Position numbers and translations under genes: made by a program. A DNA stretch of 33,046 bases from Candidatus Limnocylindria bacterium (lineage in GTDB: Bacteria; Chloroflexota; Limnocylindria; QHBO01), in NCBI GenBank assembly GCA_039917415.1, contig JBDSJJ010000087.1:1-33046 (forward strand). The letters are read 5' to 3'. Positions 20,634 to 32,957 of this stretch are shown here, one piece after another. The notes beneath the pieces are model-generated. The model had not been told where the DNA came from. It was given only the letters and a program-made list of their open reading frames with translations, and made no database searches. How positions within the stretch are numbered: position 1 is the stretch's first letter; each line of letters opens with the position of its first letter.

Positions 20634-20643
20634 GGAGATCCAG

Positions 20644-22473
20644 ATGTGCGGCATCGTCGGGTACGTCGGGCCGCGAGATGCGGCCCCCATCCTGCTCGAG
20701 GGTCTGCGACGCCTCGAGTACCGCGGCTATGACTCGGCCGGGATCGCGATCCTCACCGACGCGGGCGAGGTCTTCATCGAGAAGAAGGCCGGCAAGCTCA
20801 CCAACCTGACCGACCACCTCAACGGCGATGCGCCCGCCGGACACCCAGGCATCGGCCACACCCGCTGGGCGACGCACGGGCGACCCAACGACACCAATGC
20901 CCATCCGCACGTCGACTGCAGCGGCAAGCTGGCCCTGATCCACAACGGGATCATCGAGAACTATGTCGAGATCAAGCAGGAGCTGAGTGCCGCAGGCCAC
21001 CGTTTCTCCTCGGAGACCGACACCGAGGTCCTTGCCCACCTGATCGAGTCGAAATACGACGGTGACCTGGTCGAGGCCGTTCGCCGCGCATTGAACGACG
21101 TTCGGGGCGCATATGCGATCGGCGTCATGCACACCGATCACCCCGATCGGATCGTGGGCGCGCGCATGAACGTTCCCCTGATCGTCGGTCTCGGTGAGGG
21201 GGAAGGATTCCTCGCCAGTGACGTGCCGGCCATCCTCGAGCACACGAAGAACGTCGTCATCCTCCACGAAGGAGACATCGCCGACGTCACTCCGTCCGGC
21301 ACGAGGATCATTTCGCTCGACGGCGAGACGGTGGAGCGCGACACGACCGAGATCCACTGGAACATCGAAGCCGCCGAAAAGGGTGGCTTCGCGCACTTCA
21401 CCCTCAAGGAGATCTACGAGCAGCCGCACGCCATCCAGGAGTGCCTCCGCGGCCGCGTCGACGGAGAGGGCAACGTCACCCTGGACGAGCTGGGCGAGAT
21501 CGAGGATCGGCTGCGCGAGATCGAACGCGTCTACGTCGTGGGCTGTGGAACGGCCAGCTATGCCGCGCACGTGGCGGCCTATCTGATCCAGGACTGGGTC
21601 GGCATCCCGGCCACGATGCAGGTCGGGTCCGAGATGCGGTACAGCCCGCCGCCCATCGATCGGAACACGCTCGTGATCGGCGTGAGCCAGTCGGGGGAGA
21701 CCGCGGACACGCTCGCACCGCTGCGGTTGGCCCAGGAGCGCGGTGCGCTGGTCGTCGTGGTGACCAACGTGGTTGGCAGCGCGATCACCCGCGAGGCCGA
21801 TGCGGTCTGCTATCTCCAGGCCGGCCCCGAGATCGCGGTCGCCAGCACCAAGGCCTTCGTGACCCAGGTGCTCGTCCTCCAGATGATCGCCCTTCACCTG
21901 GCGGCGCTGCGCGAGACGCTGTCGACCAACCGGCTGCGCACGTTCGGACGATCTCTACGCAGCCTGCCGCGCCTCGCCGCCGAGACGCTGAAGCTCGGGC
22001 CGCAGATCAAGAAACTGGCCCGTCGCTTCGCCGGCGCGCGCGACTTCATCTTCATCGGGCGCGGCGTCGGGTACCCGATCGCAATGGAAGGCGCGCTGAA
22101 GCTCAAGGAGCTGAGCTATGTGCATGCCGAGGGCTATGCCGCAGGGGAGCTCAAGCACGGGCCGATCGCCCTCCTCGACCCGGAGACGCCCCTGCTGGCG
22201 ATCGCCACCCGCGGGGCAACGTACGAGAAGGTGACGAGCAACGTGGCCGAGGCGCGTGCCCGATCGGCGCCGGTGATCGCGATCGCCACCGAGGGAGATG
22301 ACCAGATCGATCGCTACGCGGGCGACGTCATCTACGTGCCCGACGTCCCGGAGCCTATCAGCCCGGTCATCGTCGTCCTGCCGCTCCAGCTCCTCGCGTA
22401 CGAGGTCGCCGTTGCCCGCAACACCGACGTCGACCAGCCGCGCAATCTCGCGAAGTCCGTCACCGTCGAGTAG
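20644..22473 (+). CDS. glmS: Glutamine--fructose-6-phosphate aminotransferase
   Basis: 609 aa with the N-terminal nucleophile MCGIVGY, two SIS domains, and a C-terminal KSVTVE. Confidence 0.98.
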   Translation: MCGIVGYVGPRDAAPILLEGLRRLEYRGYDSAGIAILTDAGEVFIEKKAGKLTNLTDHLNGDAPAGHPGIGHTRWATHGRPNDTNAHPHVDCSGKLALIHNGIIENYVEIKQELSAAGHRFSSETDTEVLAHLIESKYDGDLVEAVRRALNDVRGAYAIGVMHTDHPDRIVGARMNVPLIVGLGEGEGFLASDVPAILEHTKNVVILHEGDIADVTPSGTRIISLDGETVERDTTEIHWNIEAAEKGGFAHFTLKEIYEQPHAIQECLRGRVDGEGNVTLDELGEIEDRLREIERVYVVGCGTASYAAHVAAYLIQDWVGIPATMQVGSEMRYSPPPIDRNTLVIGVSQSGETADTLAPLRLAQERGALVVVVTNVVGSAITREADAVCYLQAGPEIAVASTKAFVTQVLVLQMIALHLAALRETLSTNRLRTFGRSLRSLPRLAAETLKLGPQIKKLARRFAGARDFIFIGRGVGYPIAMEGALKLKELSYVHAEGYAAGELKHGPIALLDPETPLLAIATRGATYEKVTSNVAEARARSAPVIAIATEGDDQIDRYAGDVIYVPDVPEPISPVIVVLPLQLLAYEVAVARNTDVDQPRNLAKSVTVE

Positions 22474-22483
22474 AGGCCCTCGC

Positions 22484-22861
22484 ATGAGCCGCCACGAGAT
22501 CGGGATCGACCTGGTCGACATCCATCGTATCCGCGCCGTACTGGGACGGTTCCCGGATCGGTTCCGCCTCCGCGTCCTGACCGAACACGAGCAGGCGTAC
22601 TGCGGCCGGCGCATCGAGCGCATCGCGGGCCGTTGGGCAGCCAAGGAGGCCATCAGCAAGGTGCTGGGCCTCGGGGTCCGCGGCGTCGGCTGGCGCGAGA
22701 TCGAGATCCTGCCCAATCGTGCCGGAGCACCCCAGGTCTACCTCCACGAGCGCGCCGCTCGACGTGCCGCGGCGCTCGACCTCGACGAGGTGAGCGTCTC
22801 GATATCCCACGAGCGCGAGATGGCTGTCGCGGTCGCGGTGGCGCACCGGCGTCACCCGTGA
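22484..22861 (+). CDS. acpS: Holo-[acyl-carrier-protein] synthase
   Basis: ATG 22484 lies 10 nt after the glmS stop; the track start at 22298 overlaps glmS. The product is 125 aa with IGIDLVDIHRI, RWAAKEAISKVLG and ISHEREMAVAVAV. Confidence 0.9.
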   Translation: MSRHEIGIDLVDIHRIRAVLGRFPDRFRLRVLTEHEQAYCGRRIERIAGRWAAKEAISKVLGLGVRGVGWREIEILPNRAGAPQVYLHERAARRAAALDLDEVSVSISHEREMAVAVAVAHRRHP

Positions 22862-22877
22862 CCGTGGGGACACCCGG

Positions 22878-23783
22878 GTGAGCAGGCCGGTTGCGCGCAA
22901 CCTCACGCAGCGCTGGGTCGCGTCGCACCTGCCGGACCGCCCAGCGCGATCGCACAAGGGTGACTTCGGACGCCTGTTGGTCGTCGCCGGATCGACCGAG
23001 TTCCCCGGGGCGGCGATGCTCACCGCTCTCGGGGCCATGCGCGCCGGCGCCGGTGTCGTTCGCGTCGCCGCGGCCGAGTCCGTGGCGGCACGCCTGGCGG
23101 GCGCGATTCCGGAGCTGACCTGGATCGTGCTCGACGAGGAGGCGCCGGGCCTCATTGCCCCCAGCGGCTGGCGCCAGGTTGCCGGCGAGGTCAACAGCCA
23201 GGACGCCGTCGTGATCGGGCCCGGTCTCGGTGCGCAACCGGCCACCCAACGGCGCGCGCGCAACCTCGTGACCGGACTGCGCATCCCCGGAGTGGTTGAC
23301 GCGGACGGTCTCAACGCGCTGGCCTCCGGCGGCAATTGGTGGACCGGGTTGGCGGCCTCGCTGGTGCTCACGCCACATCCGGGCGAGTTCGCGCGGCTGA
23401 CGAGGGCACCAGCACCGAACAGCGACGATGACGACGCTCGCCTGGTCGCCGCGCGCGACGCCGGCCTCCGCTGGCAGCAGGTCGTCGTCCTCAAGGGAGC
23501 GAACACCCTGGTGGCCGATCCGCACGGGGACGTTCTGCGCTCCAACGTTTCGACACCCGCGCTGGCGACAGCCGGCACCGGCGATCTGCTGGCAGGCGTG
23601 ATCGGCGCTTTTTTGGCTGCCGGGTTGGCGCCGATGGAAGCGGCTGGCTGCGCCGTGGCCGTGCATGGCGCAGCCGGGCTGCTGGCGGAGGATCGGATCG
23701 GCCGTGCGGGCGTCATGGCGCGCGACGTGGCGGCGCTCCTTCCCGAGGCCATCGAGCAGTTGCGCGGCGGTCGTGCCCGGTGA
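22878..23783 (+). CDS. nnrD: ADP-dependent NAD(P)H-hydrate dehydratase (YjeF C-terminal-type carbohydrate kinase fold; no epimerase domain)
   Basis: 301 aa with HKGDFGRLLVVAGSTEFPGAAMLTALGAMRAGAG, TPHPGEFARL, VVLKGANTLVA and TAGTGDLLAGVIGAFLA. Confidence 0.85.
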   Translation: MSRPVARNLTQRWVASHLPDRPARSHKGDFGRLLVVAGSTEFPGAAMLTALGAMRAGAGVVRVAAAESVAARLAGAIPELTWIVLDEEAPGLIAPSGWRQVAGEVNSQDAVVIGPGLGAQPATQRRARNLVTGLRIPGVVDADGLNALASGGNWWTGLAASLVLTPHPGEFARLTRAPAPNSDDDDARLVAARDAGLRWQQVVVLKGANTLVADPHGDVLRSNVSTPALATAGTGDLLAGVIGAFLAAGLAPMEAAGCAVAVHGAAGLLAEDRIGRAGVMARDVAALLPEAIEQLRGGRAR

Positions 23784-24910
23784 CGTTGCCCGGCAGCCCG
23801 CATCGGGCCTGGATCGAGGTCGATCATCGAGCGATCCGCTCGAATCTCGCCGCGGTCCGTGTCGCCGCTCCGAGCGCGGAGGTCATCGCGGTGGTGAAGG
23901 CCAACGCCTATGGGCATGGCGCCGTACCCGTTGCTCGAACGCTGCTGGCGGACGGAACCGAGCGCCTGGCGGTCGCCACCATTGACGAGGCGATCGAGCT
24001 GCGTGACGCGGGGATCAGCGCTCCGATCCTCGTCCTGTGGGCCGTCACCGAGGTAGAGGCGGGAGCGATCTCCGCGTACGGTTTGGAGGCGATGGCCGAC
24101 GCTGAGCATTCGATCGTGGCGCTTGAGGCCGCCGGACAGCGAGATGGCGTCCGCATCGGCGTCCATCTCAAGATCGACACGGGCCTGGGTCGCCAGGGAG
24201 CTCGTCCCGAGGACGCGATCAGCCTCGCCACCCGGATCGCCCGCAGCCGCCATCTCCTCCTGGCGGGCACGATGAGCCACCTCGCGGTTCCCGGCGAGGA
24301 CGACGCCTACACCGAGGTCCAGGCCCTGCGCCTGTCCCGCGCGCTGGATGCCATGCGCTCGTCAGGAGTCGACCCGGGGCTCGTGCACATCAGCGCGACG
24401 GGCGGCCTGCTCGCGGGATCAGTCGCCTTCGCCGATGCCGTGCGGCCCGGGCTGGCCCTCTACGGCCTTCGCCCGTCGTGGGCTCGAGCTCGGGAAGCGG
24501 CGCTCACACCGGCGCTCACCCTCAAGGCGCGCGCGCTGCGCGTGTTTGATCTCGGGGCCGGCGAGGCCGTTGGCTACGGGCTTCGCTTTCGAGCAGCACG
24601 CGCCACCCGCATCGCCACGCTCGGCATCGGCTACGGAGACGGGTGGCCGCGCGTCCATGCCAACCATGGATCCGCGCTCGTCCGCGGGTCCCGGGTCCCC
24701 GTCGTCGGAGCGCTGAGCATGGACGGCCTGACCGTGGATGTCGGCGAAATCGATGGTGTAACCTACGGCGACGAATTCGTCCTGATCGGGGAGCAGGGCG
24801 GCGCGCGGATCACAGCCGACGACGTGGCGGCCGAGCGAAGAACCATCAACTACGAAGTGACGACCGCATTGCGCGAGCGTCTCCCGCGGCTCCACATTGG
24901 AGCCGACTGA
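23780..24910 (+). CDS. alr: Alanine racemase
   Basis: 376 aa with a GTG start overlapping the nnrD stop. It has the PLP-lysine block VVKANAYGHG and the later blocks GYGDGW and MDGLTVDV. Confidence 0.94.
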   Translation: MTLPGSPHRAWIEVDHRAIRSNLAAVRVAAPSAEVIAVVKANAYGHGAVPVARTLLADGTERLAVATIDEAIELRDAGISAPILVLWAVTEVEAGAISAYGLEAMADAEHSIVALEAAGQRDGVRIGVHLKIDTGLGRQGARPEDAISLATRIARSRHLLLAGTMSHLAVPGEDDAYTEVQALRLSRALDAMRSSGVDPGLVHISATGGLLAGSVAFADAVRPGLALYGLRPSWARAREAALTPALTLKARALRVFDLGAGEAVGYGLRFRAARATRIATLGIGYGDGWPRVHANHGSALVRGSRVPVVGALSMDGLTVDVGEIDGVTYGDEFVLIGEQGGARITADDVAAERRTINYEVTTALRERLPRLHIGAD

Positions 24911-24942
24911 TCGCCCGCCGCGGACCGGAAGCGCAGGCACGC

Positions 24943-25470
24943 ATGGCATCACCGATCGAGATCGACGTGTGGCAAGGGGAGATTGCAGAGCTCGAGGTGG
25001 ACGCGCTCATCGTCCCGGCCAATGAGTCCCTGTTCATGACCGCCGGAACGGCCGCGTCGGTGAAGCGTCTCGGCGGGGACGAGATCGAACGCAACGCGGT
25101 GGATCAGGGCCCGGCCGAATCCGGAACTGCCATCGCCACGCATGCCGGCTCGCTCGCCGCCGCGTATGTCATCCACGCCGTCGGAGTCGGACATGAGCGC
25201 AATGCCGATCGCGAACGGCTCGCCGCCGCGATTCGCGCGGCGCTCTCCTTCATCGTCCCACTTCAGCTCCGGCGAATCGCCTTCTCCCTCGTCGGCACCG
25301 AGCACGGCGTCTTCACTCCGGCCGAAGCGGCCGAGGTGCTGTTCGCCGAGTTGGCGCTGCCGGACTCGGCGGGTGAGCACTTGGACTCGGTCGTGGTAGC
25401 GACCGCCAACGTCGCCGAGACCCACGCGGTAAACGAGGCGATCGCCGCGCGCCGGGCGCAGGCGAGGTGA
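24943..25470 (+). CDS. Macro-domain protein (divergent; probable ADP-ribose binding or hydrolase fold)
   Basis: 175 aa, with ATG 24943 lying 32 nt after the alr stop. Macro-like blocks are ALIVPANESL, GTAIATHAGSLAAAYVIHAVGVG and RIAFSLVGTEHGVFTP. The usual GGGV..AI glycine loop reads TAGTAASV. Confidence 0.65.
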   Translation: MASPIEIDVWQGEIAELEVDALIVPANESLFMTAGTAASVKRLGGDEIERNAVDQGPAESGTAIATHAGSLAAAYVIHAVGVGHERNADRERLAAAIRAALSFIVPLQLRRIAFSLVGTEHGVFTPAEAAEVLFAELALPDSAGEHLDSVVVATANVAETHAVNEAIAARRAQAR

Positions 25471-25715
25471 GCGGGGACGCCGCGCGCCGCATTGCGCGAG
25501 CGCTCGACCGTCGTGGCCTCACGGTACCCGCCGGGCTGCTGCTCGACGCCCATCGTCCACTCGCTCCGCTCTTGAGCGACCTCGGCGTCGCGCTCGCGCC
25601 GATCCTGACCGCCGCCGCTGGCCCCGATCCGGACACGCTGAGGTTGCTGCGCGACGAAGCCGCCATCGAGCGGATCATCGACGCCCTCGAGGAGCGGCAT
25701 GCCGAGCCCCGCTGA
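25467..25715 (+). CDS. Hypothetical small soluble protein (82 aa), first gene of the unassigned cluster
   Basis: The GTG start overlaps the macro-gene stop (GTGA). Third positions are G/C-rich throughout. It has no hydrophobic segment and no motif I recognise. Confidence 0.6.
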   Translation: MSGDAARRIARALDRRGLTVPAGLLLDAHRPLAPLLSDLGVALAPILTAAAGPDPDTLRLLRDEAAIERIIDALEERHAEPR

Positions 25716-26550
25716 CCTGCTCGGACGCCTCGTCCGCTTCATCGGCGAAGTGCTCGGCGCCTCTTCGCTTAGGTTCGAAATCGGTACCACGATTGTCCTG
25801 CTCGGCGTTCTCCTCGTGCTCCTCCAGCTCGTTGCTCGGCCCATCAGCCGCTGGGTCACCGCCGATGCGGCCGGCCTCGCTGGCGTCGGACGCGCCATGG
25901 CGCTGGCCGCCGAGTCGGGGACCGATGCGGTCGTGTCGCTGGGAGGAGGCGGTATCACCCGCACGACCGATGCCCTGGCACGGCTCCAGACGATCGCCTC
26001 GCTTCCGCTGCTTGGCCACGTGGCCCGGGCGGCGGCGCGCAGCGGCGTTCCCCTGCGCGTCCTGGTCAACGATCCCATCGCCGCCTCCCTGGCCGCTGCC
26101 ACGGTGGATGCTGCCCACGAAGCCACGGCCACGCTGGAGCGACAGGGACGCACGCGGATTGTCATCGTCGGCGAGGGACGCCCGGCGATCGCCGGCCTGG
26201 CAATGACGACTCGGGCGCGGCCCGCGGCGGCATTCGCGTTCGGATCTCTCCGCGAGGAAGCGCTGCTTCACCTCGACGGTTTGCGGAGCGGTGCCGGCAC
26301 CCTGACGACCGTCAGCGCCGACGCGGCGCAGGCTCCGTCCCTGCGGTTGGGAGGGGGATCGGCGCTCATCGGGCCTGAACTGTTCCAGGCCGGCGCCGAT
26401 CTGAGGTCGAGCGTGGACGAGCGCACGATGGTGATGGCGGGCAATCGGCTCATCGGCCTGGCGGTTGCGGTCGTCGCAATCGGGACCGTGCTCGCCATGG
26501 CGGGCATCATCGACCTCGGGGAGATCCTGGTCGGAGTCGCGCGCGAGTGA
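25699..26550 (+). CDS. Hypothetical bitopic membrane protein (N-terminal TM, ~200-aa soluble domain, C-terminal TM)
   Basis: 283 aa. GAGGAG precedes ATG 25699, which overlaps the previous gene by 17 nt. The hydrophobic helices are IGTTIVLLGVLLVLLQLVA and LIGLAVAVVAIGTVLAMAGII. The middle looks alpha/beta, with the strands AVVSLGGGG, LRVLVND and RIVIVGEG. Confidence 0.7.
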   Translation: MPSPADLLGRLVRFIGEVLGASSLRFEIGTTIVLLGVLLVLLQLVARPISRWVTADAAGLAGVGRAMALAAESGTDAVVSLGGGGITRTTDALARLQTIASLPLLGHVARAAARSGVPLRVLVNDPIAASLAAATVDAAHEATATLERQGRTRIVIVGEGRPAIAGLAMTTRARPAAAFAFGSLREEALLHLDGLRSGAGTLTTVSADAAQAPSLRLGGGSALIGPELFQAGADLRSSVDERTMVMAGNRLIGLAVAVVAIGTVLAMAGIIDLGEILVGVARE

Positions 26551-27164
26551 CGCGCCCGACCATCACCGCGCTCGTGGTCCTGGTCGGGCTGCTGCTGTTG
26601 GCGGATCTGCTGGTCGTCAACAGCGCCCTTCAAGACGTGGCCGGCGTCGTGGTCGACGCCGCGATCCTGGTGGCCGCGGGCGCCGCGCTTGCTGCCGGGG
26701 CATCCCTCGTGACGCGCCGCCTCGGCGACCTGTGGCGCCGTCGCGGAGACCCGATCGGCGCCCTGCTCGTGGTGGCGGGTGTCGCCGCCATGCTCGTGGC
26801 CGGCATGCGTCCGGGCTCCAGCGGGTCCGATGATCCCGCCGTGCAGTGGCTGCTGGCCGCGCTGCTCATCCCGATCGGGGCCACGCTGTTCGGGCTGCTC
26901 TTCGTCTCGACCGTCGCCGCCGCCCGGCGATCGGTGGCCGGCGGCAGTCGAGAGGCAGTCGTGCTGGTCACGGCAACGACGATCACCGTCCTGCTCCTCC
27001 TTCCGCTGGCCGGCAGCATCGGCTCCTGGCTCTCGGATGCCAGCGGCTGGATGCTCGGGACGGCGGTGGCTTCGGTGTTTCGTGGCCTGCTGATCGGTAT
27101 CGCACTGCTGGGCGCGGTGTATGCGGCCCGCACGATGCTCGGGATCGGGTCCGCCGATGAGTGA
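26547..27164 (+). CDS. Hypothetical polytopic membrane protein (~6 hydrophobic segments)
   Basis: 205 aa with a GTGA overlap to the previous gene. It is almost entirely hydrophobic helices separated by short Arg/Gly/Ser loops. Confidence 0.7.
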   Translation: MTRPTITALVVLVGLLLLADLLVVNSALQDVAGVVVDAAILVAAGAALAAGASLVTRRLGDLWRRRGDPIGALLVVAGVAAMLVAGMRPGSSGSDDPAVQWLLAALLIPIGATLFGLLFVSTVAAARRSVAGGSREAVVLVTATTITVLLLLPLAGSIGSWLSDASGWMLGTAVASVFRGLLIGIALLGAVYAARTMLGIGSADE

Positions 27165-28002
27165 CCGCCGACCACCGTGGTCGCTGCTCGCGCCCGCGCT
27201 GCTGCTCGTCCTGCTGGGAGTCGCATGGCTGCTGCCGGATCTCGACGTCCTGGGTCTCGAGGCGGACGATGACGGCCCTCAGGCGGACGTTCGGGCCACG
27301 CTGGACGGACTGGGCCCGGCTCCGCTGGTGCTCATCGGGTTCGACGCCGACCTCGGCACATATGCGGAGGTGCGACCCACGGTGCGGACGCTCATCGCCG
27401 ACCTGCTGGTGCGAGACGCACGGATCGCGTTCGTGTCGCTTACCGTCGAAGGACGCGCCCTGGCGACGAGCGAGCAGGCCCGCCTGCGGCGCGGCGAGGC
27501 AAATGCGAACCGCATGCTCGATCTTGGCTTCATCCCCGCCGCCGAGGCCGGCCTGGTGGACCTCACGCGCAGCATCCGGCCGGATGACGATGCGGGTGCC
27601 CTGGCATTCGCCAGGGAAGTCTCGACCGCGGGAATGGCCGCGTTCGACGCGATCATCGTCGTGGGCGGTAACGATCTCGGGCCGCGTAGCTGGATCGAGC
27701 AGGTCGCACCTCGGATCGCGCCCACTCCGATCGTGGCCATCACCCCGAGCGTGCTGCTGCCCGAGGTCCTGCCCTACGTTGCGAGCGGCCAGCTGGCCGC
27801 CCTGATCGGCACGCCGGGCGACGGGGCCGCGTATCGATCCGCAGCCGAGGTGGGCTCGCTCGAGCGCCTGGTCGAGGCGGGTGGTCCGCGGTCTCTCCCC
27901 ATCCTGGTCGGTCTTCTCATCGCAGCGGGCGCCATGGGACAGGCCCTCGTCGCACGCCTGGTCGGAACGACGAGATCCCTTGCTGATCGAGACCGCGCAT
28001 GA
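27157..28002 (+). CDS. Hypothetical bitopic membrane protein (N-terminal TM, soluble alpha/beta-like domain, C-terminal TM)
   Basis: 281 aa. ATG 27157 overlaps the previous stop (ATGAGTGA); the track start at 27121 overlaps further. The hydrophobic helices are WSLLAPALLLVLLGVAWLL and LPILVGLLIAAGAMGQALVA. The strands are LVLIGFD, RIAFVSL, AIIVVGG and PIVAITP. Confidence 0.7.
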   Translation: MSDRRPPWSLLAPALLLVLLGVAWLLPDLDVLGLEADDDGPQADVRATLDGLGPAPLVLIGFDADLGTYAEVRPTVRTLIADLLVRDARIAFVSLTVEGRALATSEQARLRRGEANANRMLDLGFIPAAEAGLVDLTRSIRPDDDAGALAFAREVSTAGMAAFDAIIVVGGNDLGPRSWIEQVAPRIAPTPIVAITPSVLLPEVLPYVASGQLAALIGTPGDGAAYRSAAEVGSLERLVEAGGPRSLPILVGLLIAAGAMGQALVARLVGTTRSLADRDRA

Positions 28003-28643
28003 CCGGACTGTTCGGCGCCGGCCCGGCGGAGGTGGTCGGAACCTGGGTCGCGGCCACTCTCACGCTCGTGGTCCTCGGCTCGCTGCTCGGAGAACGGCGC
28101 ATGTTCGGCTGGTCGCAACATCTGCTGGCTGGCCTCGCGACCGGTTTCCTGGCGTTGATCGCCCTGCGCGAGGTAATCGCCCCGCGCCTCCTCGAGCCGC
28201 TGGCCGCCGATCCTGCGGGCCGACCCGAACTGTGGGGTGGCGTGGCGCTCGTGGCGGTCGCGGCCGCCGCACCGTGGCTGCCGCGGCGCGTGACGGCCGT
28301 TCCGGCCTCGATCGCGATCGGGGCCCTGGCCGCATTCGCCCTCGCTGGCGCCGTGATCGGCACACTGCTGCCCCAGCTTGACGCCGCGATCGTGCGCCCG
28401 GGAAGCGATCTCGGCGCAACCGTGGTCGGTGTGATCGGCGCCGTGGTGACCGGACTCGTGCTCATCGGGTTCGTGCATGGCGTGCCGCGCGGCCGGATCC
28501 TCACGTCGGCGGCGGGCGTCGGGCGTTGGTTGCTCGTTGCCGGCATCGGCGCGTGGCTCGGCTACCTCGTCCTGTCGCGACTCATCCTGCTCATCGATCG
28601 CATCGGCTTCCTGCTTGGCGAGTGGCTGGGGTTCGTACCGTGA
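27999..28643 (+). CDS. Hypothetical polytopic membrane protein (~6 hydrophobic segments)
   Basis: 214 aa with an ATGA overlap to the previous gene. It is a hydrophobic multi-helix protein. Confidence 0.7.
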   Translation: MTGLFGAGPAEVVGTWVAATLTLVVLGSLLGERRMFGWSQHLLAGLATGFLALIALREVIAPRLLEPLAADPAGRPELWGGVALVAVAAAAPWLPRRVTAVPASIAIGALAAFALAGAVIGTLLPQLDAAIVRPGSDLGATVVGVIGAVVTGLVLIGFVHGVPRGRILTSAAGVGRWLLVAGIGAWLGYLVLSRLILLIDRIGFLLGEWLGFVP

Positions 28644-30277
28644 GCCAGCCTCGCGTGCGCGCCGAGATGGCGGTCCTGATCGATGTCGGCTCCGCATGGG
28701 CCAAGGCCGGGGTCATCGGCCAGGTTGGCGGTCGCTGGCGCCTCGTGGCCCATGCCACACAGCCGACGGCCTGGGGCTCGGCCGCGCTGCGTGCGGCGCT
28801 GGTCGACCAGCTCGCGTCGGCCGTCGATGCGCGATTGACCGGTCAGGTCGACCAGCTGTTGGCGGATGCGCGCAGGATCGAATGCCACACCGCCATCCCG
28901 CCGCGCCTGGCGATCGTGGCGGTCAGCCGTGAGCTGTCGGGGAGCGCGGCCCGACGCGCCGCAGAGGCGGCGGGGTGGCACGTGGTCGAGTTCATGACCC
29001 TCGACGACGGCAGGGACCTCGCCGATCGGCTGGCGACCCTGCAGGCAGCCGAGGTAAGCGCCTGGCTTATCGCAGGAGGCTTCGACGGTGCGCGCAGCCC
29101 CCGAGCGCTCGAGGCCGCGGCGCTGGTGGCCGCAGCGCGGCGTCAGGGCGGCGGGCCGGTGGTGTGGGCCGGCTCGGCGGATCTCGGGCCTGACGTCGTG
29201 GAGCTCTTCGAGCCAGGGGTCGTGGCGACCGTCGCGAACCCCCGACCTGACGCACGCCGCGACGAGCCCGGGCCACTGCGCGATCACCTCGTTGCCCTGC
29301 TCAGGGACGAGGTTGCGGTCACGGAGGAGACGCATCTCGCATCGTCAACCTTCGGTCGAGCCGTGGGTGCCCTGGCCACGCTCAGCGGGTTGCGCATCCT
29401 GGGCGTCGACCTCGGGGCGCGTTCAGCTGTCAGGGTGCTGGCCGAGCCAGATGGCAGCGTCGCCAGCCGAGTCCGCGCTCGTGGCGGCCTGGCGGGCACC
29501 GTCCTCGTGTCCGGCGCCGCGGCCCGCGTCGCCCGCCTGGCCGGCGATGCGGGCGACGAGTCGGCCGTCGCCGACGTGCTGCAGACCCTGCGCGCCCGCC
29601 CCACAACCCTGCCGCAGACGGTCGAGGAGCTCTCGGCCACCCAGACGGCCGCGCGGGTCCAGCTGGCGGCGATGTTCGACGAGGGGACCGACGGGTCTGT
29701 CGATCTCGTCATCGGTGCCGGCCGCACCTTGGCGGCTGCGCCGTACCCCGGACAGGCTGCCCGCATGCTGCTCGACGGAGTGCGCCCGCTCGGGGTGACG
29801 CAGCTTGCCGTCGATGCCGGCGCTGTGCTCGGCCCGCTCGGCTCGCTTCCCGACGACCAGGTGCGGGAGGGCGTCTCGCTGCTCGGCGAGGACCTCCTTG
29901 TGCCCCTCGGCACAGCGATCGTGTGCCGCGGCGGCGACCCCGGCCGGACCGCGATGCGCGTCACCCTGCATCGGGCAGGCTGGCCGGCGGTGGGTCCGGT
30001 CGAGATGCGGACCGGGCAGCTCCAGGTGCTGCCGCTGCCGCGCGGTCAGGTCGCCGAGGTGACGATCGAGCTGCTCGGGTCGGCCACCTTCGGCGCGACC
30101 CGCCGTTCGCCCCGCATCCAGGCCATGGTCTCGGGTGGCGCGGTCGGGCTGATTCTCGACGCGCGCGGGTCGCCGATCGGACTCCCGCGACGCGGCGACG
30201 ATCGGCGCGAGGTGCTGGCCGCATGGCGCGATGCGCTGAACCGGGATGCCGCCGCCGGAGCGGAGCGCTTCGCATGA
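28640..30277 (+). CDS. GlmL/MutL-like ASKHA-fold (actin/Hsp70/sugar-kinase superfamily) protein with an extra C-terminal domain
   Basis: 545 aa from GTG 28640, which forms a GTGA overlap; the alternative start is ATG 28667, and the track start at 28526 overlaps the previous gene. The ordered blocks are LIDVGSAWAKAG, PRLAIVAVSRELSGSAARRAAEAAGWHVV, WLIAGGFDGA...PVVWAGS, ILGVDLGARSAV and DLVIGAGRTL. There are no hydrophobic helices. Confidence 0.6.
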   Translation: MSQPRVRAEMAVLIDVGSAWAKAGVIGQVGGRWRLVAHATQPTAWGSAALRAALVDQLASAVDARLTGQVDQLLADARRIECHTAIPPRLAIVAVSRELSGSAARRAAEAAGWHVVEFMTLDDGRDLADRLATLQAAEVSAWLIAGGFDGARSPRALEAAALVAAARRQGGGPVVWAGSADLGPDVVELFEPGVVATVANPRPDARRDEPGPLRDHLVALLRDEVAVTEETHLASSTFGRAVGALATLSGLRILGVDLGARSAVRVLAEPDGSVASRVRARGGLAGTVLVSGAAARVARLAGDAGDESAVADVLQTLRARPTTLPQTVEELSATQTAARVQLAAMFDEGTDGSVDLVIGAGRTLAAAPYPGQAARMLLDGVRPLGVTQLAVDAGAVLGPLGSLPDDQVREGVSLLGEDLLVPLGTAIVCRGGDPGRTAMRVTLHRAGWPAVGPVEMRTGQLQVLPLPRGQVAEVTIELLGSATFGATRRSPRIQAMVSGGAVGLILDARGSPIGLPRRGDDRREVLAAWRDALNRDAAAGAERFA

Positions 30278-31308
30278 GCGTGGTCCACCGGATTCCGCTG
30301 CCGGTCGGAGCGACACCGATGGTCGAGGTCGGGCACGTGGTCGAGCCGTCCGAGGTGCTGGCAACGCGGCGGACGCCGCGTGGCGGGCAAGCAATCGCCG
30401 TCGCCGCTCCCCTGCGTCGCTCGGCCGTGGACGCTGCTGCCTGCCTGACCGTTCGACCGGGGACGTTCCTGGATGCGGGCGCCACCCTCGCCGACAACGG
30501 ACGGGGGCGCGTGGTTCGGGTCCCCGAGTCCTGCATCCTGCTTGGATACGATCGCGACGACGGCTCGGCGCTCATCGCTCCGCTCAGTGGCAGCCAGCCG
30601 GTGGTGGGTCATGTGCGCGGCGAGGTGGTCGCCATGGAGCCGGACGCCATCGAGGTCCGCGTCAGCGGCGCCCTCGTGGGAGGGGTGGGTGGCACGGGCA
30701 ACGCCGTCCACGGGGAGCTCAGGGTGGCCGTCCATGACCCGGCCGCCGAACTGCGTGCCAGCGCCATCGACGTCGGGGCTACCGGGCGCATCCTCGTCGG
30801 GGGCTCGCGCGCTTCGGCTGAGACGCTGACGCGGGCACGCGCGATGGGTGTCGCCGGAATCGTCCTCGGCGGAGTCCTCGACAAAGAGCTGCGTGACTTC
30901 GAGGCGACGCAGGTCCGACGCCGGGAGCTCGGAGTGGTGCGGGGCGACTTCGCGGTAATCCTGCTGGAGGGCTACGGCAAAGTCGGGTTCGATCCTGGGC
31001 TGTTCGCCTGGTTCCAGCGCCACGATGGTCGCCTGGCCAGCCTGTTCGGAGCCGATGCCCGCCTCTACGTCTACGACGCGGAGCCCGCTCCCGCGCGGCG
31101 CATGCTGGCTCGCTCAGGGGAGCGCGTCATCGCCCACCGACGTCCGCACGCTGGGTTGGCGGGAGAGCTGATCCGCGTCCTCGACCGTCCGCACGCGTTC
31201 GGATCCGGGGTCGTGGGGCGCGCCGCCGTCGTCCGGTTCGATGACGGACGTACCGCGATCGTTCCGCTCGCCAACCTCGAGGCCACGGAGGCGTTTCCCG
31301 TCGGTTGA
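30274..31308 (+). CDS. Hypothetical soluble protein (beta-barrel/lipoyl-like N-terminus, central alpha/beta segment, KOW/SH3-like C-terminus)
   Basis: 344 aa with an ATGA overlap to the previous gene; the track start at 29923 is a 5'-extended shadow. The N-terminus has MVEVGHVVEPSEVLA and TVRPGTFLDAGATLA. The middle has ILVGGSRASAETLTRARAMGVAGIVLGG. The C-terminus has GERVIAHRRPHAGLAGELIRV...AAVVRFDDGRTAIVPLANLE. Confidence 0.65.
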   Translation: MSVVHRIPLPVGATPMVEVGHVVEPSEVLATRRTPRGGQAIAVAAPLRRSAVDAAACLTVRPGTFLDAGATLADNGRGRVVRVPESCILLGYDRDDGSALIAPLSGSQPVVGHVRGEVVAMEPDAIEVRVSGALVGGVGGTGNAVHGELRVAVHDPAAELRASAIDVGATGRILVGGSRASAETLTRARAMGVAGIVLGGVLDKELRDFEATQVRRRELGVVRGDFAVILLEGYGKVGFDPGLFAWFQRHDGRLASLFGADARLYVYDAEPAPARRMLARSGERVIAHRRPHAGLAGELIRVLDRPHAFGSGVVGRAAVVRFDDGRTAIVPLANLEATEAFPVG

Positions 31309-31320
31309 GCGTGGGATTCC

Positions 31321-31326
31321 TATACT
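31321..31326 (+). promoter_or_regulatory. Possible -10 hexamer (TATACT) giving a leaderless or near-leaderless tsaE transcript
   Basis: TATACT ends 7 nt before the A of ATG 31334. No Shine-Dalgarno sequence lies in between. I saw no properly spaced -35. Confidence 0.3.
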
Positions 31327-31333
31327 GGCCGGC

Positions 31334-31831
31334 ATGCACTCATCTACGCTGCGAGTGCCCGTCGAGGGCGAGCTGTTCACGTCCAACGTCGAGGAGACCC
31401 GTGAGATCGGCCGTCAGATCGGGGCCATCGCGTTGCCGGCGAGCGTGCTCGCCCTGGTCGGCCCGCTCGGCGCGGGGAAGACGCAGATGGCCAAGGGTGT
31501 AGCCGCCGGACTCGGCATCGGCGGCGTGGTCAACAGCCCCACCTTCGTCCTCATGAACGAGCACGTCGGCCGTTTGCGGATGTACCACATCGACGCGTAT
31601 CGGCTCGACGAGCCGGAAGACGTCCTGGGTGCGGGCCTCCTCGACGATCGGCAGGTGCACGGGGTCGTCGTCATCGAGTGGGCCGATCGAGTGGCGGAAT
31701 GGCTGCCAAATGAGCGCCTCGAGATCCACCTCGAGCCGCTGCCTCGCGAACCGGATCGCCGACGACTGCGCTGGATCGCATTCGGGCACGCTCACAGTCG
31801 CCTCGCGCACGAGGTCCTGGCCCGCCCGTGA
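31334..31831 (+). CDS. tsaE: tRNA t6A37 biosynthesis ATPase TsaE
   Basis: ATG 31334; the track start at 31241 overlaps the previous gene. The product is 165 aa with LVGPLGAGKTQMAKGVA, NSPTFVLMNEH and YHIDAYRL. Confidence 0.9.
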   Translation: MHSSTLRVPVEGELFTSNVEETREIGRQIGAIALPASVLALVGPLGAGKTQMAKGVAAGLGIGGVVNSPTFVLMNEHVGRLRMYHIDAYRLDEPEDVLGAGLLDDRQVHGVVVIEWADRVAEWLPNERLEIHLEPLPREPDRRRLRWIAFGHAHSRLAHEVLARP

Positions 31832-32454
31832 TCATCGCGTTCGACGGTGCATCAACCGACCTGTCAGTGGCGCTGCTGGCGCACGATGGAACGGTCATCG
31901 CGGAGGATGCATGGAGCAGCGGCCACCGCCAGTCCGCCGAGCTGCTGCCGCGACTGCTTGCCACGATCGAAGGGTCCGACCGCACCCTGCCCGATGCAAC
32001 GGCAATCGCCGTCGGCCTCGGTCCCGGGTCGTTCACCGGGTTGAGGGTGGCAGTCGCCCTTGGCAAGGGGCTGGCGATGGGTCTGGGTCTGCCGATCGTC
32101 GGGGTCCCAAGCCTGGTCGCCTGGCTGGCATCGGATGCGCAGGCCAGCGCTGCCGTGGCGCGTGCCGGCGCGCGGGACGCCTTCGTGGCCCGACGGGACG
32201 ACCCAGACATTGCGATCGTGGATCGCGACGCGTTGATCGGCATCGGGAACGTCGTGACGCCCGCCGAGCTCGTGGCGGCCTTCGGCCTGCTCGACAGCCG
32301 CCCGCCACGCGCCGCAGCCACCATCGCTCGCATGGCCGCGTCGCGACTCGCCGCCGACGGATCGGGCGATGATCTCAGCGCCCTCGAGCCGATCTATCTC
32401 CGCGCGCCGCGCGGCATCACCGCCGAAAGCACCGGGGTCGTCCGGTGGCTCTGA
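31828..32454 (+). CDS. tsaB: tRNA t6A37 biosynthesis protein TsaB
   Basis: 208 aa with a GTGA overlap to tsaE. Motifs are IIAFDGASTDLSVAL and VGLGPGSFTGLRVAVALGKGLA. Confidence 0.9.
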   Translation: MIIAFDGASTDLSVALLAHDGTVIAEDAWSSGHRQSAELLPRLLATIEGSDRTLPDATAIAVGLGPGSFTGLRVAVALGKGLAMGLGLPIVGVPSLVAWLASDAQASAAVARAGARDAFVARRDDPDIAIVDRDALIGIGNVVTPAELVAAFGLLDSRPPRAAATIARMAASRLAADGSGDDLSALEPIYLRAPRGITAESTGVVRWL

Positions 32455-32957
32455 TGGCCCGCGTCGTGGTCGACCCGATGCGGCTCGATGACGTGGCGGC
32501 GGTCCACGAGATCGAGCGGCTGAGTTTCCGGACTCCCTGGCCGATTCATGCCTTCGAGCAGGAGCTGCGCTCGAATCGACTCGCGCACTACGTCGTGGCG
32601 CGGGCGGGAGAGCAGATCGTCGGGTTCGCCGGGATCTGGATGATGGTCGACGAGGCGCACGTTACGACGTTCAGCGTCCATCCCGATTGGCGGCGGCAGT
32701 CGATCGGCCGGCAGCTGCTCCTCAACCTGGCCGAGCTGGCAGGCACGGTCGGCGCCCGCCGCCTGACGCTCGAGGTCCGGGAGTCCAACAAGCACGCGCA
32801 GGCCCTCTATGACAGCTTTGGCTTCGACATCGTCGGGCGGCGCCATGGCTATTACACCGATGACGGGGAGGACGCGCTGGTCATGACGACACTTAACCTC
32901 GACGATCCGCACATGCATTCGGTCCTCGCTCGCGAGCGCGAGCGCATCGGCGCATGA
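32445..32957 (+). CDS. rimI: Ribosomal-protein-alanine N-acetyltransferase RimI (GNAT)
   Basis: 170 aa from GTG 32445, or 167 aa from ATG 32454 which abuts the tsaB stop. It has the GNAT block HPDWRRQSIGRQLL...LEVRESNKHAQALYDSFGF and sits between tsaB and tsaD. Confidence 0.88.
   Translation: MALMARVVVDPMRLDDVAAVHEIERLSFRTPWPIHAFEQELRSNRLAHYVVARAGEQIVGFAGIWMMVDEAHVTTFSVHPDWRRQSIGRQLLLNLAELAGTVGARRLTLEVRESNKHAQALYDSFGFDIVGRRHGYYTDDGEDALVMTTLNLDDPHMHSVLARERERIGA

What the first reader, a model, noticed from the sequence alone, without database searches (positions are those of the whole stretch)
24943..31308. Eight translationally coupled genes (macro domain plus seven unknowns) at the normally contiguous alr|tsaE junction: candidate undescribed membrane plus ASKHA-protein system
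Seen: from the macro-domain gene to the gene ending at 31308, every junction is a start/stop overlap. These are GTGA 25467-25470, a 17-nt overlap at 25699-25715, GTGA 26547-26550, ATGAGTGA 27157-27164, ATGA 27999-28002, GTGA 28640-28643 and ATGA 30274-30277. All genes share one orientation and the same G/C-rich third positions as the flanking housekeeping genes. The products, in order, are a divergent macro domain, an 82-aa soluble protein, and a 283-aa protein with an N-terminal TM, an alpha/beta-like domain and a C-terminal TM. Next come a 205-aa polytopic protein, a 281-aa protein with the same TM/soluble/TM layout, and a 214-aa polytopic protein. The last two are a 545-aa GlmL/MutL-like ASKHA-fold protein and a 344-aa soluble barrel/KOW-like protein. 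Established: in classical actinobacterial synteny (for example Mycobacterium tuberculosis alr-tsaE-tsaB-rimI-tsaD), alr is directly followed by tsaE. Here about 6.4 kb sits at that junction. Inference: coupling this tight usually marks subunits of one stoichiometric complex. Four membrane subunits plus an actin/Hsp70-like subunit loosely recalls MreB-MreC-MreD (actin-like, bitopic, polytopic). The neighbours supply envelope precursors or signalling (cdaA, glmM, glmS, alr), so my working hypothesis is an envelope-associated machine. I cannot place the small protein, the four membrane proteins or the last protein in any named family.
Basis: partly seen in the sequence, partly recalled or inferred. 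Interest (0 to 1): 0.85.

Follow-up and report, generated by a model that had tools for sequence, protein, structure and literature searches.

The report
Conserved seven-gene membrane and ATPase module
Seven of the eight tightly packed genes form an uncharacterised module (four membrane proteins, a GlmL-type actin-fold ATPase, its adaptor protein and a small partner) that stays together in several bacterial phyla, so it is probably an undescribed membrane machine.

Summary
Eight same-strand genes (24943-31308) are linked by seven start/stop overlaps, and the domain calls are correct.

The window comes from a Chloroflexota bacterium (Candidatus Limnocylindria), not an actinobacterium. It is part of a 33-kb one-strand housekeeping string.

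Seven of the genes (P2-P8) form a real, widely conserved unit:
- They are collinear in 48 of 80 genome loci outside the window's own lineage, mostly Chloroflexota.
- They occur in a permuted order, P2-P7-P8-P3-P4-P5-P6, in a Brocadiales genome and in marine metagenome contigs.
- In that marine clade P7 and P8 are fused into one protein of about 1000 aa.
- A reduced P2-P7-P8 core occurs in Bacillota and Armatimonadota. In Bacillota it again lies between alr and tsaE.

The macro gene is a neighbour found only in the window's own lineage.

Curated family matches are few. P3 matches DUF6754 and P7 matches Pfam MutL, but P7 falls far below the GlmL cut-offs. P8 is a barrel-sandwich hybrid, an unassigned alpha/beta domain and a KOW barrel. 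I found no B12 mutase, defence system, riboswitch or paper.

Most likely this is an undescribed membrane complex coupled to a GlmL-type ASKHA switch. Its function is unknown and its link to the envelope is only circumstantial.

The parts
23780..24910 (+). alr (alanine racemase). This is the left boundary and context only, not part of the module.
   Evidence: The ORF is. Its orthologues in L001 and L002 carry Ala_racemase_N/C. A 32-nt gap separates it from the macro gene.
24943..25470 (+). P1, a divergent macro-domain protein of 175 aa. It is coupled to the module only in the window's own lineage and is not a core member.
   Evidence: Pfam Macro gives 2.8e-16 (60 bits). The best NCBIfam score is 76 bits against cut-offs of 200 or more. 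A homologue sits next to the module only in the window, L001 and L002, and in none of the other 80 genome loci.
25467..25715 (+). P2, a small 82-aa helical protein with a hydrophobic central segment. It is the first core member and travels with P7-P8 even where P3-P6 are not nearby.
   Evidence: No family match was found. The iterated HMM was built from 60 sequences. P2 sits at the head of the module in both gene orders. Bacillota loci carry two copies flanking P7-P8. The hydropathy peak is at residues 32-50.
25699..26550 (+). P3, a 283-aa DUF6754 protein with the layout TM, alpha/beta domain of about 200 aa, TM. The soluble domain is inferred to be cytoplasmic (N terminus out, C terminus out).
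   Evidence: PF20539 gives 7.2e-15 here and 1e-117 to 1e-123 in the permuted-order clade. A mean of 3.4 K/R residues follows TM1, against 0.8 before it. Some relatives carry a signal peptide plus an FN3-like domain N-terminal to TM1. Invariant residues are E72, G74, G82, G182, E187 and G225.
26547..27164 (+). P4, a 205-aa membrane protein with six TM segments. It belongs to no Pfam or PDB family.
   Evidence: Six hydropathy peaks are seen in 46 of 57 homologues, and the K/R bias favours N terminus in. Invariant residues are P109, R128, R179, G184 and L187. There is no Pfam, NCBIfam or PDB match.
27157..28002 (+). P5, a 281-aa protein with the layout TM, acidic alpha/beta domain of about 220 aa, TM. 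The domain is inferred to lie outside the cytoplasm (N terminus in, C terminus in).
   Evidence: No family is shared by more than one of the 25 homologues. Anaerolineae orthologues carry an N-terminal zinc ribbon and a long acidic repeat region before TM1, which places the N terminus in the cytoplasm. Invariant residues are E71, G99 and W179.
27999..28643 (+). P6, a 214-aa membrane protein with five or six TM segments. It belongs to no Pfam or PDB family.
   Evidence: Six TM segments are seen in 47 of 68 homologues. Invariant residues are T22, G45, G108, Q126, F158, G175 and R201. There is no Pfam or PDB match.
28640..30277 (+). P7, a 545-aa ASKHA-fold protein of the GlmL/MutL (PF13941) family with an extra C-terminal beta domain of about 100 aa that ends in GG..G[LI]I[LI]DARG.P. 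Its nucleotide-binding motifs are partly degenerate in this lineage.
   Evidence: Pfam MutL gives 1.1e-19 over residues 12-221 only. The NCBIfam GlmL score is 31 bits against cut-offs of 204 and 475. There are 928 representative clusters at E<=1e-3. Motif comparison: DVGSAWAKA versus DCGSTTTKA, DLGARSAV versus DIGGATTD, and GAGRTL versus SGGVLS. No solved structure is detectable by sequence.
30274..31308 (+). P8, a 344-aa cytoplasmic adaptor made of N-terminal barrel-sandwich hybrid beta domains, an unassigned alpha/beta domain (GG...A...G.V.GG ... TEGFG) and a C-terminal KOW/SH3-like barrel. It is fused to P7 in one clade.
   Evidence: The AF2 model has pLDDT 89 and pTM 0.73. RnfC_N matches 21 of 35 homologues, NqrA_N 12 of 35 and KOW 9 of 35. 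The profile matches Spt5/NusG/L24 KOW domains in the PDB at 5.7e-6 and weaker. Foldseek finds only barrel matches at low TM-score. P7-P8 fusions are shown.
31334..31831 (+). tsaE. This is the right boundary and context only.
   Evidence: The orthologue in L002 is a 165-aa TsaE that starts 25 nt after P8. The sequence at the junction is. tsaB and rimI follow with overlaps.

Best explanation
P2-P8 encode one conserved, so far undescribed membrane-associated machine.

Shown:
- The seven families stay together in two different gene orders and in several phyla.
- P7 and P8 are fused in one clade.
- P3 to P6 supply about 16 transmembrane helices.

Inferred from topology:
- P3 exposes its alpha/beta domain to the cytoplasm.
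- P5 exposes its alpha/beta domain to the outside.
- P4 and P6 are six-helix bundles.

Inferred mechanism: P7 is a GlmL-type ASKHA protein. Together with its adaptor P8 (barrel-sandwich hybrid, alpha/beta domain, KOW barrel) it works as a nucleotide-dependent conformational switch, as the GlmL and diol-dehydratase reactivase chaperones do. The switch docks on the membrane through P2 and the cytoplasmic domain of P3. Its movement is relayed through P4 and P6 to the external domain of P5, which transports something or remodels something at the cell surface.

The macro protein is a neighbour found only in the window's own lineage. The substrate is unknown. An envelope-related role is the leading guess.
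For: Conservation as a unit:
- Iterated HMMs found collinear P2-P3-P4-P5-P6-P7-P8 in 51 of 83 sources: the window, its two close relatives L001 and L002, and 48 of the 80 genome loci. Most of the rest are cut by contig ends.
- An independent gene caller gave the same array with overlapping genes.
- The permuted order P2-P7-P8-P3-P4-P5-P6 occurs in a Brocadiales genome and in 12 complete marine metagenome loci.

Fusion: proteins of about 1000 aa combine P7 and P8 (BLASTP of P8 against their C-terminal parts gives 3e-12 to 2e-18). They recur across independent metagenomes at 58-100% identity.

Breadth:
- There are 928 representative clusters of P7 relatives.
- At least 582 species genomes carry the C-terminal motif.

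Topology:
- The positive-inside bias after TM1 of P3 points to a cytoplasmic domain.
- N-terminal signal peptide plus FN3-like additions to P3 in some relatives agree with that.
- The zinc-ribbon extension on P5 places its N terminus inside.

P7 and P8:
- P7 belongs to PF13941, and relatives cover the whole model at 1e-110 and below.
- GlmL/MutL is described as a reactivating chaperone of glutamate mutase (PMC4682846).
- The P8 model is confident (pLDDT 89).

Surface hints in relatives:
- An LPXTG-type protein is encoded directly after P8 in 48 loci by clustering (56 by HMM). 44 of the 48 carry the motif.
- The external domain of P5 also points outward.

Operon signals: no promoter-like or terminator-like site lies inside the block.

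Native origin: composition matches the flanks and there is no defence-system hit.
Against: - No physical interaction, expression or phenotype data exist.
- In Bacillota, Armatimonadota and some other loci only (P2-)P7-P8 lie together, with no P3-P6 within 10 kb. The soluble core can therefore exist apart from the membrane genes, at least locally.
- The nucleotide-binding motifs of P7 are partly degenerate in the window's own lineage: the phosphate-2 GG..TD motif and the adenosine GG motif are lost. ATP turnover here is uncertain.
- No ASKHA-driven transporter is known as a precedent.
- The swivelling-domain reading of the P8 middle domain rests on weak Foldseek hits (TM-score 0.17-0.24).
- The envelope link rests on neighbourhood and on a gene (P9) that this window lacks.
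Confidence: 0.55

Rival explanations
1. The functional unit is the soluble core P2-P7-P8: an ATP-dependent enzyme or chaperone, by analogy with hydantoinase/oxoprolinase-type enzymes or with cofactor reactivases. P3-P6 are then a separate membrane system, such as a transporter for its substrate. They are genomically linked in Chloroflexota, Planctomycetota and the marine clade, but do not form one complex with the core.
For: Bacillota and Armatimonadota loci have (P2-)P7-P8 without P3-P6 within the flanks. Relatives of P7 give weaker Hydantoinase_A hits. The P7-P8 fusion links only these two proteins.
Against: All seven families are kept through a gene-order permutation. Linkage is tight, with overlapping genes, in distant clades. 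P2 is hydrophobic. In Bacillota the core is preceded by a conserved two-TM bPH-like protein, so a membrane connection persists there too.
Confidence: 0.25
2. P7 is a true GlmL/MutL-type reactivase that serves a B12-dependent mutase, and the membrane proteins handle the cofactor.
For: P7 matches Pfam MutL. GlmL/MutL is a reactivating chaperone of glutamate mutase (PMC4682846).
Against: P7 scores 31 bits against the GlmL cut-offs of 204 and 475, and even the best relatives stay below them. No mutase or B12-binding gene lies in the window, and none is among the recurrent neighbours of the 80 genome loci. The marine loci were only spot-checked. No cobalamin riboswitch was found in six sources. P7 also has an extra C-terminal domain and an obligate partner, P8, that canonical GlmL is not known to have; that last point is from my own knowledge.
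Confidence: 0.05
3. The module is an MreB-MreC-MreD-like cytoskeletal elongation system in which P7 polymerises.
Against: P7 falls in the GlmL/hydantoinase branch, not in MreB_Mbl, FtsA or ParM. No component matches MreB, MreC or MreD.
Confidence: 0.03
4. The genes are unrelated neighbours, or a recently acquired island, packed together by genome compaction.
For: Start/stop overlaps are common throughout this window.
Against: The same seven families co-occur in more than 60 complete loci from distant lineages. GC3 equals that of the flanks. There is no PADLOC hit. The position is shared with Bacillota.
Confidence: 0.02

Closest known systems
GlmL/MutL, the accessory (reactivating) chaperone of coenzyme-B12-dependent glutamate mutase (PF13941, TIGR01319, NF040745)
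   Same: P7 has the same ASKHA-fold family signature (Pfam MutL above its gathering score). Its relatives align over the whole 450-position model. A nucleotide-dependent chaperone action is a reasonable working model (PMC4682846).
   Different: P7 scores far below the curated GlmL cut-offs. It has an extra C-terminal beta domain with the GLIIDARGRP motif. It always has a P8 partner and is sometimes fused to it. No B12 mutase is nearby. It is embedded with four membrane proteins. Its phosphate-2 and adenosine motifs are degenerate in this lineage.
Diol dehydratase reactivase DdrAB and EutA-type reactivases (from my own knowledge: an ASKHA ATPase with a swivelling beta/beta/alpha domain that swaps subunits with its client)
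   Same: P7 plus P8 together supply an ASKHA domain and a possibly swivelling-like alpha/beta domain. The support is weak Foldseek hits to an RraA-like protein and to the C-terminal domain of a pyruvate kinase.
   Different: No sequence homology was detected. The domain assignment is weak. P8 adds barrel-sandwich hybrid and KOW domains. The presumed client is a membrane complex, not a soluble B12 enzyme.
NqrA/RnfC subunits of the Nqr and Rnf membrane redox pumps
   Same: The N-terminal barrel-sandwich hybrid domain of P8 relatives matches RnfC_N (21 of 35, best 8.8e-7) and NqrA_N (12 of 35). In both cases a peripheral cytoplasmic subunit sits next to polytopic proteins of about 200 aa.
   Different: The rest of NqrA/RnfC does not match. 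P4 and P6 do not hit the Rnf-Nqr membrane families. I saw no Fe-S or flavin motifs. The window's own P8 does not reach the RnfC_N threshold.
Mechanotransmission systems with cytoplasmic ATPases and external domains bracketed by TM helices (FtsEX, MacB, LolCDE), and the PilM-PilN-PilO platform. These are analogies from my own knowledge.
   Same: The logic is shared: a cytoplasmic nucleotide-dependent protein, membrane subunits and an external domain held between two TM helices (P5).
   Different: There is no ABC ATPase, no homology to any of these components and a different fold family. This is an analogy only.
MreB-MreC-MreD
   Same: An actin-superfamily fold protein is encoded next to bitopic and polytopic membrane proteins.
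   Different: No component is homologous. P7 belongs to a non-filament branch of the fold.
KOW domains of NusG, Spt5 and ribosomal protein L24
   Same: The C-terminal barrel of P8 matches KOW profiles and structures.
   Different: P8 has no NGN domain and no transcription or ribosome context. Here the KOW barrel is most likely a protein-binding module.

Membership tests
GlmL/MutL family (PF13941; TIGR01319; NF040745) | Match to the Pfam MutL model above its gathering score | tested here: met
   The score is 71 bits against a cut-off of 27, but only residues 12-221 align to model positions 2-200 of 450.
GlmL/MutL family (PF13941; TIGR01319; NF040745) | Score above the curated NCBIfam cut-offs for the GlmL family or the GlmL equivalog | tested here: not met
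   The scores are 31.0 against 204.05 (TIGR01319) and 31.6 against 475 (NF040745). Relatives L005 and L052 also stay below the cut-offs.
GlmL/MutL family (PF13941; TIGR01319; NF040745) | Encoded with the subunits of a B12-dependent mutase (glmS/glmE, kamDE or oraSE) | tested here: not met
   All neighbours in the window are housekeeping genes. No mutase-like cluster appears among the recurrent flanking genes of the 80 genome loci or in the marine loci I read.
GlmL/MutL family (PF13941; TIGR01319; NF040745) | Intact ASKHA nucleotide-binding motifs (phosphate 1, phosphate 2, adenosine) | tested here: inconclusive
   Phosphate 1 keeps D, G, S and K. In the window's clade phosphate 2 (DLGARSAV) and the adenosine motif (GAGRTL) have lost canonical residues that relatives keep.
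DUF6754 (PF20539) | Match above the gathering score | tested here: met
   P3 scores 55.3 bits against a cut-off of 27. Orthologues reach 1e-117 to 1e-123. The family has no known function.
Macro domain (PF01661) | Match above the gathering score | tested here: met
   P1 scores 60 bits against a cut-off of 22. No NCBIfam equivalog cut-off is reached.
MreB-MreC-MreD elongation system | Homologues of MreB (actin-like), MreC and MreD | tested here: not met
   None of the eight proteins has a Pfam or NCBIfam hit to these families.
Rnf/Nqr membrane complexes | An RnfC/NqrA-type subunit beyond the N-terminal hybrid domain, plus Rnf-Nqr family membrane subunits | tested here: not met
   Only the N-terminal barrel-sandwich hybrid domain matches. 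P4 and P6 have no Rnf-Nqr hits.
Known anti-phage defence systems (PADLOC) | Any component matching a defence-system model | tested here: not met
   There are no meaningful hits for the eight proteins. The only hit is a 12-bit Cas12b match at E=0.0099.
PEP-utiliser/RraA-like swivelling beta/beta/alpha domain (P8 middle domain) | A structural match of the middle domain with a good TM-score, and the catalytic His of the phospho-carrier domains | tested here: inconclusive
   Foldseek hits 5x15 and 2e28 have TMq of only 0.17-0.24 with the whole model. No Pfam family covering the middle domain is shared among the 35 homologues. The alignment shows no invariant His. A domain-wise search was not possible.

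The most novel reading that the evidence does not exclude
P2-P8 define a new class of transmembrane machine that is energised or gated by a GlmL-type ASKHA protein and its adaptor, rather than by a P-loop ATPase. It would be ancient enough to be shared by Chloroflexota, a Brocadiales planctomycete and uncultured marine lineages, with a reduced form in Bacillota and Armatimonadota. It would carry out a housekeeping step at the cell surface, such as export, anchoring or remodelling of an envelope component.
Probability: 0.35. Interest if true: 0.9.

Novelty: categorically new. Interest (0 to 1): 0.75.

Why it matters
The module occurs in hundreds of species. It sits inside the most conserved housekeeping gene string of this genome: ribosomal protein operons, then glmM, glmS, alr, the module, and tsaEBD. 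Even so, five of its seven families have no Pfam model or solved structure detectable by sequence, and none has a known function.

If it is one machine, it would be the first membrane system coupled to a GlmL-type ASKHA protein. That would widen the known roles of this fold beyond cofactor reactivation. It could also fill a gap in how Chloroflexota, whose envelope biology is poorly understood, build or maintain their cell surface.

The natural P7-P8 fusion and the two gene orders give concrete constructs for structural and genetic tests.

Tried and rejected
- **Paralogy of the two membrane pairs.**
  - BLASTP found nothing for P3 versus P5 or for P4 versus P6.
  - My local hhalign run gave a collinear but insignificant P3/P5 alignment (probability 8%), and the tool's run gave nothing.
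  - I do not claim paralogy.
- **Solved structures by sequence.** P3, P4, P5, P6 and P7 have no usable match, with single sequences or with profiles.
- **First P8 model.** A shallow alignment left the middle domain unresolved (pLDDT 60.8). A more diverse alignment fixed this. Foldseek on the whole model then returned mainly KOW/Tudor barrels.
- **CW_7 cell-wall-binding repeat match to P8.** The E-value of 2.7e-7 comes from one short motif, QGxWGxGxE, counted against three repeats of about 10 bits each. Only 1 of 35 homologues hits Pfam CW_7. I treat it as coincidence.
- **TIGR04222 hint for P2.** The E-value of 0.034 was not reproduced in relatives.
- **Riboswitch search.** Nothing lies upstream of the module in six sources.
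- **Defence island.** There are no PADLOC hits.
- **Literature.** Searches for DUF6754, PF13941 and GlmL-like terms found nothing relevant.
- **Exact-sequence look-up.** The window's P7 is not on record.

Full report
**1. The observation**

The starts chosen for P5 (ATG 27157) and P7 (GTG 28640) are not the first start codons in their ORFs. They do reproduce the gene lengths and overlaps called independently in two related contigs, including the unusual 17-nt P2/P3 overlap.

Third-position GC is 0.80-0.87 in the block and 0.81-0.88 in the flanking genes. No promoter-like or terminator-like site lies inside the block.

Seven overlaps out of seven junctions exceed the local background, which by my reading of the ORF table is about one junction in three. 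Overlaps are nevertheless frequent in this window: nnrD/alr, tsaE/tsaB and tsaB/rimI all overlap. Coupling alone therefore says little.

The whole 33-kb window is one same-strand housekeeping string. My reading of the ORF translations, with Pfam labels taken from the relatives, gives this order: ribosomal protein operons, secY, rpoA, truA, rplM-rpsI, cdaA, ybbR, glmM, glmS, acpS, nnrD, alr, the block, then tsaE, tsaB and rimI.

**2. The organism**

The closest P7 and P8 homologues (66-96% identity) come from Chloroflexota. Those that carry a more specific label are almost all Candidatus Limnocylindria. The actinobacterial frame of the finding is wrong, although the alr-to-tsaE synteny argument still applies, as section 5 shows.

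**3. The components**

| Gene | Size | What it is |
|---|---|---|
| P1 | 175 aa | Divergent macro domain |
| P2 | 82 aa | No family; hydrophobic centre |
| P3 | 283 aa | DUF6754 (PF20539); two TM helices around an alpha/beta domain of about 200 aa |
| P4 | 205 aa | Six TM helices; no Pfam, NCBIfam or PDB relative |
| P5 | 281 aa | Two TM helices around an acidic domain of about 220 aa; no Pfam family shared by more than one of 25 homologues |
| P6 | 214 aa | Five or six TM helices; no Pfam, NCBIfam or PDB relative |
| P7 | 545 aa | Pfam MutL/GlmL, N-terminal half only |
| P8 | 344 aa | Barrel-sandwich hybrid, unassigned alpha/beta domain, KOW barrel |

P7 scores 31 bits against the GlmL cut-offs of 204 and 475, and no solved structure is detectable by sequence.

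With a diverse alignment, P8 gave a confident AlphaFold model (pLDDT 89, pTM 0.73).
- Its N-terminal barrel-sandwich hybrid beta structure matches RnfC_N in 21 of 35 homologues and NqrA_N in 12 of 35.
- Its alpha/beta middle domain carries the most conserved motifs (QG.WG.GGE, VGG...A...G.V.GG, TEGFG).
- Its C-terminal KOW/SH3-like barrel is supported.
- Foldseek gave only weak hints that the middle domain resembles swivelling beta/beta/alpha domains (RraA-like 5x15 and the C-terminal domain of pyruvate kinase 2e28, with TMq 0.17-0.24).

**4. Conservation: the key result**

A search of 1.84 billion representative proteins found 928 clusters related to P7. Many are full-length, 550-620 aa, at 27-36% identity.

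A scan of one genome per species with an alignment of these distant relatives found at least 582 species carrying the C-terminal motif, and it returned 80 loci. Their titles name:
- Anaerolineae, Thermoflexia, Caldilineaceae, Ardenticatenales and Candidatus Aquidulcis;
- Armatimonadota and Bacillota;
- Planctomycetota, including Brocadiales;
- Poribacteria.

I built iterated HMMs from the window's proteins. They detect P2, P3, P4, P5, P6, P7 and P8, in that order and on one strand, in 51 of 83 sources: the window, its two close relatives and 48 of the 80 genome loci. Most of the others are cut by contig ends. An independent gene caller shows the same eight-gene array with overlapping genes in a 1-Mb contig.

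A Brocadiales genome (L068) and a large set of marine metagenome contigs (GC 35-69%) carry the same seven families in a permuted order, P2-P7-P8-P3-P4-P5-P6.

In the marine clade P7 and P8 are one polypeptide of about 1000 aa. This fusion recurs in independent assemblies at 58-100% identity, so it is not an assembly artefact.

The macro gene accompanies the module only in the window's own lineage.

Retention of all seven families through a permutation and a fusion is strong evidence for a functional unit.

**5. Variants and context**

- In Bacillota loci P2-P7-P8 lie together without P3-P6 within 10 kb. Most Armatimonadota loci have only P7-P8 there, with no detectable P2, and a few loci have P7 alone.
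- In Bacillota and in some permuted-order loci, P2-P7-P8 is preceded by a conserved two-TM protein with a bPH-like domain, which I call P0. Bacillota also have a second P2 copy after P8.
- Bacillota loci L036 and L058 read glmM-glmS-acpS-alr ... P2-P7-P8, and L058 continues to thiL-tsaE-tsaB-rimI. The core therefore lies between alr and tsaE there too. The position is shared between phyla and is probably ancestral, not a local insertion.
- In Anaerolineae-type loci a further gene (P9) follows P8 directly, in 48 loci by clustering and 56 by HMM. Its layout is an acidic N terminus, one TM helix, a Pro/Thr-rich linker, and a C-terminal (L/V)PxTG motif with a hydrophobic stretch and a basic tail. 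That ending is an LPXTG-type sorting signal, present in 44 of 48. The window lacks P9.
- In Anaerolineae P5 is about 850-920 aa long. It has an N-terminal zinc ribbon and long acidic repeats with a WL motif before its first TM helix.
- In the permuted clade P3 gains a signal peptide and an FN3-like domain.

**6. Topology (inferred)**

P3 has 3.4 K/R residues in the 12 positions after TM1, against 0.8 before it. In some clades it also carries secreted N-terminal additions. Its DUF6754 domain is therefore probably cytoplasmic.

The cytoplasm-type zinc ribbon N-terminal to TM1 of P5, and the acidity of its domain, place that domain outside. P4 is probably N terminus in, with six helices.

Together the four proteins give about 16 helices, one cytoplasmic domain and one external domain.

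**7. How it most likely works**

*Shown.* There is a conserved seven-gene unit, a P7-P8 fusion, membership of P7 in the GlmL fold family, and the domain make-up of P8.

*Inferred.* P7-P8 acts as a nucleotide-dependent switch, by analogy with GlmL/MutL, which is described as a reactivating chaperone of glutamate mutase (PMC4682846). It attaches to the membrane part through P2 and the cytoplasmic domain of P3. Its movement is passed through P4 and P6 to the external domain of P5. I give this 0.55.

*Main rival (0.25).* P2-P7-P8 is a self-sufficient soluble enzyme or chaperone, and P3-P6 are a linked but separate membrane system.

*Caveat.* In the window's clade the phosphate-2 and adenosine motifs of P7 have lost canonical residues that relatives keep. 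Even so, the protein is 66-96% conserved within the class. It may bind rather than hydrolyse nucleotide.

*Other rivals.*
- A B12-reactivase role is unlikely. There is no mutase neighbour anywhere I looked, no cobalamin riboswitch, and the scores fall below the cut-offs.
- An MreBCD-like cytoskeleton has no homology support.
- A defence island or chance neighbourhood is excluded by composition, PADLOC and synteny.

**8. Comparison with the known, and novelty**

The module shares a fold family with GlmL, a hybrid domain with RnfC/NqrA and a KOW barrel with NusG/Spt5. It is not a member of any of those systems, as the membership tests show.

P2, P4, P5, P6 and the P8 middle domain have no Pfam family. 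P3 belongs only to a DUF. Searches for DUF6754, PF13941 and GlmL-like terms found nothing relevant. I therefore rate it as a new kind of system of unknown function.

The envelope-related reading is supported only by circumstance: the P9 sorting signal, the external domain of P5, and the neighbours glmM, glmS and alr, which may reflect nothing more than old synteny.

**9. Verdict**

Interest is 0.75.

Noticed in passing
L005:13044-13622 (also L004:5455-5922, L006:12649-13194, L083:11119-11700): In Anaerolineae-type modules a further gene follows P8 directly. Its layout is an acidic N terminus, one TM helix, a Pro/Thr-rich linker and a C-terminal (L/V)PxTG motif with a hydrophobic stretch and an RR tail. 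That ending is an LPXTG-like sortase signal, present in 44 of 48 sequences. The gene is absent from the window, L001 and L002.
   Followed up: partly
L058:8870-9367; L036:8784-9350; L052:73-540; L129:9158-9625: A conserved protein of about 160 aa with two TM helices and a bacterial PH-like domain (bPH_6, 7.6e-5) lies directly upstream of P2 in Bacillota and in some permuted-order loci (13 loci). It is not present in Chloroflexota-type loci or in the window.
   Followed up: partly
L005:6677-8440 (N-terminal part of the P5 orthologue): In Anaerolineae P5 carries an N-terminal zinc ribbon followed by about 500 aa of highly acidic repeats with a recurring PxWL(Q/R)xL motif, all before the first TM helix. 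The window's P5 lacks this region.
   Followed up: partly
L036 and L058 (whole loci); window 19311-32957: The same large-scale gene order, glmM-glmS-acpS-alr ... module core, occurs in a Bacillota lineage and in this Limnocylindria window. In L058 it continues to tsaE-tsaB-rimI. This suggests that the core has an old position inside the housekeeping gene string.
   Followed up: partly
window 30667-30714 (P8 residues 132-147): The most conserved P8 motif (QG.WG.GGE in relatives, GALVGGVGGTGNAVHG here) resembles the core of the CW_7 peptidoglycan-binding repeat of Cpl-7 lysozyme (PDB 5i8l). Each repeat scores only about 10 bits, and only 1 of 35 homologues hits Pfam CW_7, so it is probably a coincidence.
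   Followed up: partly
window 31241-31334: The longest tsaE ORF starts at 31241 and would overlap P8 by 68 nt. The lengths of orthologues favour ATG 31334, which is 25 nt after the P8 stop.
   Followed up: partly
window 20000-20650 versus L058:293-556: Rfam finds a glmS ribozyme upstream of glmS in the Bacillota locus. It finds no RNA family at all at gathering threshold in the 33-kb window, not even upstream of glmS or cdaA.
   Followed up: no
proteins P0376, P0377 and P0254: Unusual fusions appear among the P7 relatives. Two proteins of about 1300 aa have a signal peptide plus TSP3 repeats or a Peptidase_M1 domain N-terminal to the MutL domain. One 568-aa protein joins a P6-like N terminus to P7. 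I did not check whether these are gene-calling artefacts.
   Followed up: no
L036:13134-14528: A second P7-like gene lies directly after P8 in one Bacillota locus. It appears as two adjacent ORFs and runs off the end of the locus.
   Followed up: no
L035, L047-L049, L054, L056, L059, L063, L064, L072, L073, L077, L078, L080, L083 (about 0.7-1.7 kb downstream of P8/P9, minus strand): A 486-aa phosphoglucomutase/phosphomannomutase-family gene recurs in convergent orientation downstream of the module in 23 Anaerolineae-type loci. This may only reflect shared ancestry of these genomes.
   Followed up: no
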